This document shows, in pieces, positions 18,477-21,148 of a stretch of DNA of 41,182 nt (its first letter is position 1; each line of letters opens with the position of its first letter). Location of the stretch: positions 1 through 41,182 of IMG/VR virus record IMGVR_UViG_3300032233_003247; one strand, written 5' to 3'. Under the pieces are notes generated by a model. The model was not told where the DNA came from. It was given only the letters and a program-made list of their open reading frames with translations, and did not search any database. The translations under genes and the position numbers were made by a program. The stretch comes from a virus. Taxonomy: Duplodnaviria > Caudoviricetes.

Positions 18477-19052
18477 ATGCGTTCATTAGGACAAACCCGT
18501 CCTCTGCTCGCATATGGAGTCCCTGCCGCTGCCGGTTTAGCAGTCGGTGGGGCTCTTGCCGCACAGGGCGAAGACCCAGGTAGTGCCGCGCTTGGTGGTG
18601 TTGCCGCAGCTTTAGGAGCACGTGGTGGCCTCGGTGCCGCTCGCTTAGCCGGAAAGTATGCACCTGAATTGGCTGCACGTATTCAAGAAAAAGCCGTAGT
18701 TCCTTTGGGAAATGTGGTTGGCAACATCGGACGTAATTTACCAGAGGGAGCCACGCTACGTGGTAAAGCCGTTGGTAGACTTGCCGATGTTATCTCTTCG
18801 GCAGAAAATGTTGCAGTTACTCCGGGCGCTCAAACTGCCGTTCGCAATGTAGCTGCTGGATTGGCTACGCCTGCCGCAGCCGGTTTTGCCGGACTCGGCG
18901 GTCTAGCTGCTGGTGCAATCCCAGAAGCACTCGGTGTACCTGGGTTCCAGCAGAATCAAGTTATTGATCCTGAATCACCCTATGTAACTAGTAATACCCC
19001 TGGGGCACGGTTGGGTGTTTCGCCTAGCCAATCCACCTATCGGTACCAGTAG
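18477..19052 (+). CDS. Gly/Ala-rich hydrophobic protein
   Basis: 191 aa with glycine-zipper segments like the 6729-9069 genes. Confidence 0.7.
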   Translation: MRSLGQTRPLLAYGVPAAAGLAVGGALAAQGEDPGSAALGGVAAALGARGGLGAARLAGKYAPELAARIQEKAVVPLGNVVGNIGRNLPEGATLRGKAVGRLADVISSAENVAVTPGAQTAVRNVAAGLATPAAAGFAGLGGLAAGAIPEALGVPGFQQNQVIDPESPYVTSNTPGARLGVSPSQSTYRYQ

Positions 19053-19152
19053 TACATAAATTACCAACTGCTAAAATTTGTGATAGATAAGACATTCAGG
19101 TGTCTTTATCTTTCACCCGATAAAAAACCCTGACACTGGAGGATAAACCAAA

Positions 19153-19164
19153 GTGTTTATTGAT
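19153..19164 (+). CDS. Major capsid protein exon 1 (GTG TTT ATT GAT = MFID)
   Basis: GGAGG SD at 19138-19142; exon ends in U as group I 5' splice sites require; joins in frame to exon 2. Confidence 0.85.
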
Positions 19165-19990
19165 AGCTAGTTCAGATCCTGGTAGGTGTGTCCTTTTAGG
19201 ATTTGGTAAATAGCACCGTGATTACAGTTGAATTTTTCGGCAATCTTTCGATATGAAAGCCCAGCCTTCTTTAAAGATTTAATAGTAATCACGTCTTCCG
19301 AAGAAAACTTTCTTAAAGACTTCTTCGGTTTCCCTTTACTGGCAAAACCATTATTTTGGTAAGCCCCGAATTCCCAAGCCTTTATTAAATTTTCTTGCTT
19401 GGTAACAATTTCAAGATTTTCAATCCGGTTATTCCGTTTGTTGTGATCCTTGTGATTGACCTGAAGAGAAAAATTATGAGTCCCATGGGAACGAAGGTCC
19501 AATCCAAGAAATGAAACCGCCATTAACACGTGTAAGTGAAAGCGTTTCTTTCTTCCATTTATAAGAACTGAGACCCTGTCATAACCACTGGTTGAGCTAA
19601 TAGGAAGTTCTTCAAGTTCTTCTTGGTTCAGGTCATTAAGTTTTTTCTTAAAGGCTCGACCGTCTTCCGTTAAGTAAAGGTTACCAAGCCCGGGTACAAG
19701 TTTTGGATCCACGTTGTTCATCAACATTTTTCCAAAGCATAACATGCCTCAACTGAACGCTCAACGTTGTCACCTCATCAAGCAATTGGTGAGTGAAAAC
19801 CGGATGAATTCAGGGAAGCCCTAACGTAAAGTCGAGGGTAATCCTGAGCGAAGCCAATCAAGATCGTGATTGGAACGTGCAGAGACTACTGGGTGTAACA
19901 CGCACTTGTTACGTAATACCAGATCTAGCGTCCGGCATCCCACGTGGATGAAGAGATAGTCCACCCCTCTAAGAAACTAGAGACCAGGAG
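19165..19990 (+). mobile_element. Group I self-splicing intron in the major capsid gene
   Basis: P (GAATTCAGGGAAG 19806), Q (AATCCTGAGC 19840), R (GTGCAGAGACTA 19877), S (AAGAGATAGTCC 19951); P3 CCGGATG/CGTCCGG; IGS CGTTGTCA 19765-19772; terminal G at 19990. Confidence 0.92.
19167..19745 (-). CDS. Intron-encoded HNH homing endonuclease (antisense)
   Basis: HVLMAVSF..QVNHKDHNKRNNRIENLEIVTKQEN (I-HmuI-like HNH) plus C-terminal HTH (GLSYRKIAEKFNC). Confidence 0.9.
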   Translation of the reverse strand: MLCFGKMLMNNVDPKLVPGLGNLYLTEDGRAFKKKLNDLNQEELEELPISSTSGYDRVSVLINGRKKRFHLHVLMAVSFLGLDLRSHGTHNFSLQVNHKDHNKRNNRIENLEIVTKQENLIKAWEFGAYQNNGFASKGKPKKSLRKFSSEDVITIKSLKKAGLSYRKIAEKFNCNHGAIYQILKGHTYQDLN

Positions 19991-21148
19991 AACGACTTTC
20001 CAAAAATCTTGGGTGCGGAGCTTTACCGTCCCCACCCCGCGTATATCGCTGAAATGGCTGTAGAGCCTGTGGTTGTCCACGACTTTACTCGTCAGCCTGG
20101 TCAAACCGTCCAGCTCGACCGCTACAAGTTCTGGGGAACCCCTGGCACTAAGGATAGCCGCGAGCGTATTTCCGATCAAACTATCGGTACCGCCAACAGC
20201 CGTAACATCACCAAGGAGAAAGTCCTTGTGGTGCTTAAGGAATACACTGGTCCTGCGGACCCCGGCGATCCTACCCAGCCTTCGACCTTCAAGATTGCTC
20301 GGGAAACCCTGATCACAGCACAGCGTCTGCTACTGGATACAGGCAACTTGAATATGTTCCACCAGTCCATCGGTAGCCTCACGCTGCTTGATGACTATCG
20401 TCGGTGGCGTGACCGCGTCTTCATTGACGAACTGTCCAAAGCAGAAGCCAACGGTCAAGCTTCGACCAGCCAAGGCGGTTACTACTTTGCTGGTAACAAA
20501 GCCAAAGCATCTAACGGCTCTATTTCCTATACTGCCGCTGAGTACACTGCTCAAATCCAACAGTTCCAAGTCCGTACCGACTTGCTGAATGTTGTTAAGG
20601 ACCTTCGTAAGCGCAACGTACCGACCTATTCTGATGGTCTGTATCGTTGTATTTGCGATCCTACTTTCATGATGCACCTGCGTCGTGATCCTGACTTCCG
20701 TGAGATTGCTCGTTACTCTGGTAACCCTGGTCAAGGCATGTACATGGGTAACCCCATGATGCCTAACAACTCCAGCTTCTTCATGGGTCCCCAAGCTGGC
20801 CAAGGCTACTTCCTTGCTGGCGAACCTGTGATGCCTACTGGCGTTCAGTTTGAAGGTGTGAAGTTCTTCGAATCGACTAACTTCCCCACCAAGAGCGTTT
20901 CTGCTACTTTTGCTAGCGATGGTGCTAACACCTTCTCTAGCCAAGAAGTTGCTCAAGGTTACTTCTTTGGTCCTCAGGCAATCGGTGTTGGTATTGGTGG
21001 TCCTAACGCTCAGGTGTTGATCAACAATAACGACGACTTCAGCCGCTTCATCATTCTGATTTGGCAATTGTACGCTGGTTTTGAAATCCTCAACAAGGAC
21101 TTTGTTACCACCGCGTTCAGCTTTGTGTCGGATGACGGCAACATTTGA
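19991..21148 (+). CDS. Major capsid protein exon 2 (spliced product about 389 aa, MFIDNDFPKILGAELYRP...)
   Basis: Strongly biased codon usage, size and position after scaffold; QPGQTVQLDRY and GVQFEGVKFFESTN resemble HK97-fold MCP motifs. Confidence 0.88.
   Translation, partial: NDFPKILGAELYRPHPAYIAEMAVEPVVVHDFTRQPGQTVQLDRYKFWGTPGTKDSRERISDQTIGTANSRNITKEKVLVVLKEYTGPADPGDPTQPSTFKIARETLITAQRLLLDTGNLNMFHQSIGSLTLLDDYRRWRDRVFIDELSKAEANGQASTSQGGYYFAGNKAKASNGSISYTAAEYTAQIQQFQVRTDLLNVVKDLRKRNVPTYSDGLYRCICDPTFMMHLRRDPDFREIARYSGNPGQGMYMGNPMMPNNSSFFMGPQAGQGYFLAGEPVMPTGVQFEGVKFFESTNFPTKSVSATFASDGANTFSSQEVAQGYFFGPQAIGVGIGGPNAQVLINNNDDFSRFIILIWQLYAGFEILNKDFVTTAFSFVSDDGNI

What the first reader, a model, noticed from the sequence alone, without database searches (positions are those of the whole stretch)
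19153..21148. Major capsid gene split after codon 4 by a group I intron carrying an antisense HNH gene in its P1 loop
Seen: SD (GGAGG) plus GTG TTT ATT GAT, then 826 nt ending in G, then AAC GAC TTT CCA AAA ATC TTG in frame with the capsid ORF. The intron core P/Q/R/S and P3 are all present at 19800-19962. The guide GTTGTCA (19766-19772) pairs with TGAT^AGC, giving the required U.G at the splice site, and CGTT pairs with the first exon-2 bases AACG (P10). The two P1 strands are about 600 nt apart, and the whole loop is an HNH ORF on the opposite strand. Known: phage group I introns mostly sit in nucleotide-metabolism, polymerase, terminase or psbA genes, usually with sense-oriented endonucleases. 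Inference: the most abundant virion protein depends on splicing, since unspliced RNA stops at TAG 19168. Endonuclease mRNA is antisense to the intron and could modulate splicing. The ORF track start (20009) is wrong.
Basis: partly seen in the sequence, partly recalled or inferred. Interest (0 to 1): 0.85.

Follow-up and report, generated by a model that had tools for sequence, protein, structure and literature searches.

The report
Homing intron splits cyanophage capsid gene
The coat-protein gene of this lake cyanophage is interrupted after its fourth codon by a group I intron that is predicted to splice itself out and that carries an intact DNA-cutting gene on the opposite strand, likely used to copy the intron into related phages; this layout is already known from one mycobacteriophage.

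Summary
Confirmed. An 826-nt group I intron (19165-19990; Rfam 84.7 bits) follows codon 4 of the major capsid gene (HK97-type fold) of an S-EIV1-like cyanophage. 61 of 80 closest capsid loci lack it and read straight through the junction; 19 carry it at the same site. Across 125 distinct copies the guide covaries with exon 1. The antisense gene is an I-HmuI-like HNH, open in 105 of 105 scored copies, dN/dS about 0.1. Corrections and additions: it likely starts at GTG 19712 (181 aa) behind a predicted sigma-70-type promoter and a look-alike of the intron-less site; a 7-bp helix with compensatory change can join the intron's two ends; the intron travels with a short upstream tract, as homing predicts; the HNH has been lost repeatedly. 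Splicing was not shown (RNA contigs were ambiguous), and antisense control of splicing is untested. The layout (capsid intron, bottom-strand endonuclease) is published for mycobacteriophage LittleE, and related bacterial tRNA introns also hold ORFs in P1. This scan had already noted the element in at least 8 other genomes. New variant of a known kind.

The parts
19138..19142 (+). Shine-Dalgarno GGAGG of the capsid gene
   Evidence: sequence; G-rich motif kept in related loci
19153..19164 (+). Exon 1 of the major capsid gene, 4 codons (GTG start)
   Evidence: 61 of 80 related loci read through the junction without the insert
19165..19990 (+). Group I intron, 826 nt, ends in omega-G
   Evidence: Rfam RF00028 84.7 bits; boundaries from intron-less alleles
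19161..19167 (+). P1 5' strand across the 5' splice site
   Evidence: pairs with guide in 125 of 125 copies (121 at 7/7, 4 at 6/7); exon T/C change matched by guide A/G in 95/30
19168..19170 (+). In-frame TAG that ends translation of unspliced RNA
   Evidence: first stop at codon 6 in 119 and codon 11 in 6 of 125 copies
19170..19175 (+). P1 extension, 5' strand (pairs with 19753-19758)
   Evidence: 6 of 6 pairs in 119 of 119 copies that have it, six sequence combinations
19177..19183 (+). 5' strand of a predicted 7-bp helix with the intron 3' end (19983-19989)
   Evidence: 7/7 in 114, 6/7 in 5 of 119; G-C to A-U swap in 32; formed in the MFE fold of L015
19167..19712 (-). HNH homing-endonuclease gene, 181 aa, I-HmuI-like with C-terminal HTH; stop codon overlaps P1
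   Evidence: Pfam HNH_3 E 2e-9; PDB 1u3e E 1.9e-6; start conserved 105/105; dN/dS about 0.10
19701..19726 (-). Look-alike of the intron-less insertion site over the HNH leader and start (candidate operator)
   Evidence: 10/14 and 18/26 matches; 18/26 is tied best of 82,314 positions in the window
19736..19764 (-). Predicted sigma-70-type promoter: -35-like 19764-59, 17-nt spacer, extended -10 19744-36
   Evidence: TAnnnT at 16-17 nt from the -35-like hexamer in 87 of 105; not called by the generic scan
19765..19772 (+). Internal guide sequence (P10 19765-68, P1 19766-72)
   Evidence: P10 4/4 in 123 of 125
19800..19962 (+). Catalytic core P3, P, Q, R, S
19983..19989 (+). 3' strand of the predicted end-to-end helix, next to omega-G
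   Evidence: drifted in 4 of 6 minimal introns that lack the partner
19991..21148 (+). Exon 2 of the major capsid gene, 385 codons plus stop
   Evidence: PHROG 1357 major head protein E 7e-16; model of homologue P0122 matches phage capsids, best E 2e-12

Best explanation
This is a group I intron inserted after codon 4 of a cyanophage major capsid gene, predicted to self-splice, with an intact HNH gene on the opposite strand of its P1 loop that likely acts as a nicking homing endonuclease and spreads the intron to intron-less capsid genes. Shown here: intron identity, boundaries, guide pairing with covariation, capsid fold, an open and purifying-selected HNH, scattered distribution among near-identical capsid alleles. 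Inferred: (1) the capsid mRNA splices through P1 then P10 to give a 389-aa protein, while ribosomes on unspliced RNA stop at codon 6, before the core; (2) the HNH is read from its own minus-strand promoter inside the P1 extension, so its translation never crosses the ribozyme strand and it is uncoupled from the strong capsid transcript; (3) it nicks the intron-less site, and repair copies the intron plus roughly 140 nt of upstream flank; (4) it may limit its own expression by binding the target look-alike at its start, as I-TevI does (about 0.4); (5) a 7-bp helix joins the P1-extension loop to the bases before omega-G (helix real about 0.75; role open); (6) the HNH is lost repeatedly, leaving 268-277 nt introns.
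For: Rfam hit. 61 of 80 capsid loci intron-less, 19 with the intron at the same base. P1 exon/guide covariation 95 vs 30, P1 extension 119/119, end-to-end helix 114+5 of 119 with 32 swapped pairs arising 3 times on a core tree. 69 of 69 viral HNH relatives lie antisense right behind this exon 1; 105 of 105 scored ORFs open (one of 106 long copies, L229, missed the start pattern but its printed frame is open); median dN/dS 0.10; best solved relative is 1u3e. Intron state needs 27 changes on the exon-2 tree (14 forced by well-supported branches) but 3 on the upstream 88-nt tree; nearest-neighbour agreement 102 of 133 vs 133 of 133. L095 (intron) and L059 (none) are 77% and 83% alike in the two 100-nt bins upstream, then 91-100% for 2 kb, and 94-100% downstream. 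-10 positions 1, 2, 6 hold T, A, T in 92, 96, 99 of 105 against 52, 63, 59 for the middle three. 13 mid-size ORF-less introns have cores 0-3.4% from an HNH-bearing copy, 12 changes on the tree.
Against: No spliced RNA of an intron-bearing allele was demonstrated, and no cleavage, promoter or binding was measured. The generic promoter scan does not call the site (it has 8 of 12 consensus matches), and its -35 overlaps RNA-constrained sequence. The target look-alike is modest across the family: the 26-mer averages 16/26 (clade A) and 14.5/26 (clade B) and is best or tied best within its intron in only 38 of 105; the 14-mer in 81 of 105; the register was picked by eye. The copies are related, so counts are not independent. 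In other discordant pairs (L058/L060, L384/L053) the upstream divergence runs 600 nt or more through a variable ORF, which ordinary recombination could also give. The end-to-end helix rests on one covarying pair.
Confidence: 0.85

Rival explanations
1. Regulatory switch: the antisense HNH transcript pairs with P1 and the end-to-end helix strand, or runs over the capsid start, and so times capsid splicing and translation for the phage's benefit.
For: The antisense transcript must cover the P1 5' strand because its stop codon overlaps it; no terminator-like site was found between the HNH stop and 18900 on the minus strand; the end-to-end helix competes with P1 in the MFE fold of L015.
Against: 61 of 80 close capsid genes have no intron and 19 of 125 introns have no HNH, lost many times, which fits a selfish cycle rather than a needed control.
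Confidence: 0.12
2. The intron is real but moves passively by ordinary recombination at the conserved capsid start; the HNH is kept for another job, such as cutting competing phages at another site.
For: Several discordant pairs differ over 600 nt or more upstream; intron endonucleases acting in phage competition are in print (PMC11620839, search listing only).
Against: L095/L059 show a short upstream patch with identity on both sides; no free-standing copy among 69 viral relatives; the target look-alike points to the insertion site itself.
Confidence: 0.12
3. The motif before the HNH start is not an operator but a short palindrome or hairpin (TGTT-N4-AACA) for translation control or a host factor, or a scar of the gene's insertion.
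For: Its invariant C at position 11 fits the palindrome and not the target; the same palindrome pattern occurs at 4 places in the window.
Against: An invariant A at position 13 and the match over the first codons follow the target, not the palindrome.
Confidence: 0.45
4. No splicing is needed: a capsid protein is made from TTG 20009 or the locus is a dead allele or assembly artefact.
For: 6 of 120 database proteins are called from LGAELY.
Against: 114 of 120 start with the exon-1 residues; an N-terminus of the same type is kept in homologues at 44-52% identity; the insert is conserved with covariation in 125 distinct copies.
Confidence: 0.02

Closest known systems
Mycobacteriophage LittleE major-capsid intron (Pope et al. 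2013, PMC3706429; passages read)
   Same: About 820-nt putative group I intron in the major capsid gene, U before and G at the end, endonuclease ORF on the bottom strand; splicing shown there by RT-PCR and N-terminal sequencing; an ORF-less relative exists (BAKA tail gene).
   Different: Different host phylum and capsid family; here exon 1 is only 4 codons, the ORF is placed in P1 by covariation (its place in LittleE was not given in the passages read), and the endonuclease is clearly HNH (the paper's legend says HNH, its text LAGLIDADG-like).
I-HmuI / I-BasI / I-PfoP3I nicking HNH intron endonucleases (PMC3017599, PMC3428280; passages; PDB 1u3e)
   Same: Phage group I intron HNH of similar size with C-terminal HTH; I-PfoP3I is from a freshwater cyanophage.
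   Different: Those sit in DNA polymerase gene introns (I-PfoP3I in subgroup IA2); similarity here is distant (E 1.9e-6) and nicking is untested.
Bacterial tRNA anticodon-loop group I introns (loci L450-L569; I-Ssp6803I tRNA-fMet intron listed in PMC1995217, passages)
   Same: Same exact P and Q motifs; 105 of 120 genome hits are called as intron-containing tRNAs, mostly Asn and Thr, two in cyanobacterial genomes; 15 of 65 scorable ones have a long P1 with an ORF.
   Different: Their P1 ORFs are sense-strand, about 110-120 aa, with Cys/His motifs (HNH-like by eye, not scanned); host gene is a tRNA. The IC3 label for this class is recalled, not tested.
I-TevI operator in the T4 td intron (PMC2988022; passages)
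   Same: Homing-site look-alike next to the endonuclease promoter.
   Different: I-TevI is GIY-YIG, sense-strand, 15/20 identity and shown to repress; here 10/14 or 18/26 and untested.
crAss-like phage MCP introns (PMC7886860; passages)
   Same: Group I introns, sometimes several, in major capsid genes.
   Different: Gut Bacteroidota phages; orientation and loop position not given in the passages read.

Membership tests
Group I intron | Core P3-P7 with P, Q, R, S | tested here: met
   RF00028 84.7 bits, cut-off 50, full model; motif positions
Group I intron | U.G pair in P1 at the 5' splice site | tested here: met
   125 of 125 copies, with exon/guide covariation
Group I intron | Terminal omega-G and P10 | tested here: met
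   G19990; P10 4/4 in 123 of 125
Group I intron | Removal restores an intron-less allele | tested here: met
   61 of 80 loci; S-EIV1
Group I intron | Guanosine-dependent self-splicing | not testable with these tools
   needs in vitro assay; RNA contigs could not decide
Subgroup IC3 (tRNA-type) | Subgroup-specific peripheral structure and phylogeny | not tested
   only motif sharing with tRNA introns was shown; label recalled
I-HmuI-like HNH homing endonuclease | HNH catalytic motif and C-terminal HTH | tested here: met
   PF13392 above cut-off, HTH below cut-off; 1u3e over residues 53-187; H98, N110, N119 invariant in 11 aligned
I-HmuI-like HNH homing endonuclease | Nicks the intron-less site | not testable with these tools
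   bench assay needed
Mobile (homing) intron | Patchy spread with co-conversion of flank | tested here: met
   27 vs 3 changes; short upstream tract in L095/L059; longer tracts in other pairs
I-TevI-type autorepression | Homing-site look-alike at the endonuclease promoter | tested here: inconclusive
   strong in this window, modest across the family
HK97-fold major capsid protein | Capsid fold | tested here: met
   model pLDDT 81 of 95%-identical homologue P0122; top Foldseek hits are phage capsids, E 2e-12; PHROG 1357

The most novel reading that the evidence does not exclude
The 7-bp helix between the P1 loop and the bases before omega-G is a new group I structural element that arose with the P1-loop endonuclease, and together with the antisense HNH transcript it forms a switch that holds capsid mRNA unspliced while the endonuclease is being made, giving the intron time to home before virions assemble.
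Probability: 0.12. Interest if true: 0.72.

Novelty: new variant of a known kind. Interest (0 to 1): 0.42.

Why it matters
It is an unusually complete natural series for studying the intron-endonuclease life cycle in an essential, highly expressed phage gene: empty sites, full introns, repeated endonuclease losses and minimal introns all occur among close relatives, and the parts (splice sites, predicted promoter, candidate operator, end-to-end helix) are mapped to the base. It also fixes a recurring annotation error: capsid genes of S-EIV1-like cyanophages are truncated by gene callers when the intron is present. It does not reveal a new class of element.

Tried and rejected
RNA evidence: no run held more than 7% of the stretch's words (10 listed). 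Contigs of 5 of them were laid (X1, X4, X7, X8; X4, X7, X8, X9). Joints skipping exactly the intron appear in X4, X7 and X9, but the loose ends and insertions seen look like intron-less alleles and the X9 side is only 29 nt with one difference; X8 holds contigs across both unspliced junctions of a relative, which may be DNA. Counted as neither for nor against. Free-standing ancestor of the HNH: none among 69 viral loci; the 80 metagenome loci were pooled into and not classed one by one. HNH start at ATG 19745: rejected, not conserved. Generic promoter scan: does not call the site. ARAGORN without intron mode found nothing useful; with it, 105 of 120. PA-SR01 paper: not relevant. The S-EIV1 paper was not held, so I cannot say whether it mentions this gene. 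Sequence searches of the capsid against Pfam and solved structures (best E 0.03) were weak; the fold search settled it. Literature searches found no paper on this intron or on an L1-to-3'-end helix, but only listings were seen for most hits and subscription journals are missing, so absence from print is not shown. That nicking HNHs give one-sided co-conversion is recalled; one search found no passage for it. No supplements were read.

Full report
Observation. Rfam's group I model matches 19740-19983 at 84.7 bits, the only Rfam hit in the window. The record is a 41-kb viral fragment, 52% complete. The only isolate with a similar capsid protein among 50,697 phage records is Synechococcus phage S-EIV1, 87.5% identical. 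The protein matches PHROG 1357 major head protein, and a model of the 95%-identical intron-less homologue P0122 (pLDDT 81) matches solved phage capsids, led by cyanophage P-SCSP1u at E 2e-12.

Splice sites. Of the 80 closest capsid loci, 61 read M/V-F-I/L-D straight into N/T-D-F-P-K and 19 have the intron 3' end at the same base; 14 of these are full-length with the antisense HNH, 1 is a 276-nt form without it, 4 are cut by contig ends. 114 of 120 database homologues start with the exon-1 residues. Pooling all viral and metagenome loci gave 229 with both ends, 125 distinct: 106 long, 13 of 268-277 nt, 6 of 227-231 nt. These were gathered by targeted searches, so they are no population frequencies. 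P1 pairs in all 125, and a silent T/C change in exon 1 is matched by an A/G change in the guide (95 vs 30); P10 holds 4/4 in 123; every copy has an in-frame stop by codon 6 or 11.

Extra structure. A 6-bp stem (19170-75 with 19753-58) extends P1 in 119 of 119 copies that have this part, in six sequence combinations. A second complement, 19177-83 with 19983-89, lies directly before omega-G: 7/7 in 114, 6/7 in 5, with a G-C to A-U swap in 32 that maps to 3 changes on a core tree. The 5' change is a silent codon change in the HNH, the 3' change has no coding reason, and ORF-less mid-size introns keep both strands (13 of 13), while 4 of 6 minimal introns without the 5' strand have a drifted 3' strand. 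It forms in the MFE fold of L015 at the expense of P1 (whole-fold z -1.6, not significant). It is either a pseudoknot that docks the 3' splice site near P1 or an alternative fold; one covarying pair is thin support.

The endonuclease. HNH_3 plus a weak HTH, nearest solved relative 1u3e. All 69 viral relatives found lie antisense directly behind exon 1. ATG/GTG is kept at the position of GTG 19712 in 105 of 105 scored copies, whereas ATG 19745 is not; all 105 frames are open; median dN/dS is 0.10 among the 80 genes of 181 codons. Upstream, 87 of 105 have TAnnnT 16-17 nt behind a TTGAnn-like hexamer, 84 of them with the extended TG; the outer -10 positions are conserved and the middle ones vary. 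The generic scan misses it. The 14 nt before the start resemble the intron-less site: 10/14 here, 8-11/14 across copies, with no better window in the intron in 81 of 105; extended to 26 nt it is 18/26, tied best of 82,314 positions in the window, but best or tied best within its intron in only 38 of 105. An I-TevI-type operator (PMC2988022, passages) is plausible, not established.

Mobility. Among 133 related alleles (82 with intron, 51 without), intron state needs 27 changes on the exon-2 tree (shuffled mean 40.7; 14 forced by well-supported branches) and 3 on a tree of the 88 nt upstream. 34 discordant pairs are under 5% apart in exon 2; 14 were aligned. L095 and L059 differ only in a patch of about 140 nt upstream and are 91-100% alike beyond it; other pairs differ further because the ORF upstream is itself variable. 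One-sided co-conversion by a nicking HNH is my reading (the precedent is recalled). The 13 mid-size introns are 0-3.4% from an HNH-bearing core and scattered (12 changes): repeated loss of the gene.

Origin. The exact P and Q motifs occur in about 260 bacterial genome stretches; 105 of the 120 fetched are called as intron-containing tRNAs, including two cyanobacterial ones. 15 of 65 scorable ones have a sense ORF in P1. So an ORF in P1 is ordinary for this core type; a tRNA-intron origin is suggested, not tested by a tree.

RNA. Ten runs held 5-7% of the words; contigs from five could not separate spliced RNA from intron-less alleles. Splicing is inferred.

Known and new. LittleE has a capsid intron of about 820 nt with a bottom-strand endonuclease and proven splicing, and the same paper cites a Tuc2009 capsid intron (PMC3706429, passages); crAss-like phages have capsid introns (PMC7886860, passages); a freshwater cyanophage intron HNH is described (PMC3428280, passages). 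Also read in passages: PMC3984707, PMC2988022, PMC13168695, PMC1995217, PMC3017599, PMC10286775. Eight searches showed no paper on this element, within an open-access library. The scan's own notes list it in at least 8 other genomes and a similar operator idea once; none came up for the end-to-end helix. Verdict: real, well supported, a new variant of a known kind; interest 0.42.

Noticed in passing
L084 and L098 (capsid gene, after about codon 48); L101 (after about codon 88): Second insertions of about 890 and 970 nt in the same capsid gene with group I-like motifs by eye and sense-strand LAGLIDADG_2 ORFs (E 9e-22 and 9e-14); not hit by Rfam at the gathering score. The gene has at least three intron sites in this lineage.
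   Followed up: partly
L081 3987-5137 (S-EIV1, KJ410740.1): The intron-less capsid gene is mis-annotated in GenBank as an opposite-strand hypothetical ORF plus a 3' fragment; its junction has ACC instead of AAC, which would weaken P10 and may alter the homing site.
   Followed up: partly
L064, L066, L069: Intron-less alleles with the upstream haplotype of intron-bearing phages and C instead of T at the last exon-1 base: possible intron loss with a changed target.
   Followed up: no
L273, L308, L320, L325, L332, L349: Minimal 227-231 nt introns with a plain P1 hairpin at the same site; five are 10-13% from any HNH-bearing core and may be close to the state before the gene arrived.
   Followed up: partly
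L457, L460, L466, L470, L478, L491, L493, L497, L500, L507, L511, L513, L519, L522, L528: Bacterial tRNA introns from many phyla with a sense ORF of about 110-120 codons in P1 bearing Cys/His motifs (HNH-like by eye).
   Followed up: partly
L282, L287, L293 and about 20 similar loci: Other viral group I introns whose S motif is followed by a TATAAATA-type element and an ORF start, likely P9 endonuclease genes in T4-like phages (by eye).
   Followed up: no
window 18477-19052: The Ala/Gly-rich 191-aa ORF before the capsid gene has no family hit, and the matching stretch is highly variable or absent among otherwise near-identical relatives.
   Followed up: no
window 19068-19110: Conserved TGCTAAAATT motif and a short inverted repeat upstream of the capsid gene in intron-bearing and intron-less relatives; candidate capsid promoter.
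   Followed up: no
window 19175-19177: GAT just before the end-to-end helix resembles the 5' splice-site sequence and could be a circularization site; speculation from the sequence only.
   Followed up: no
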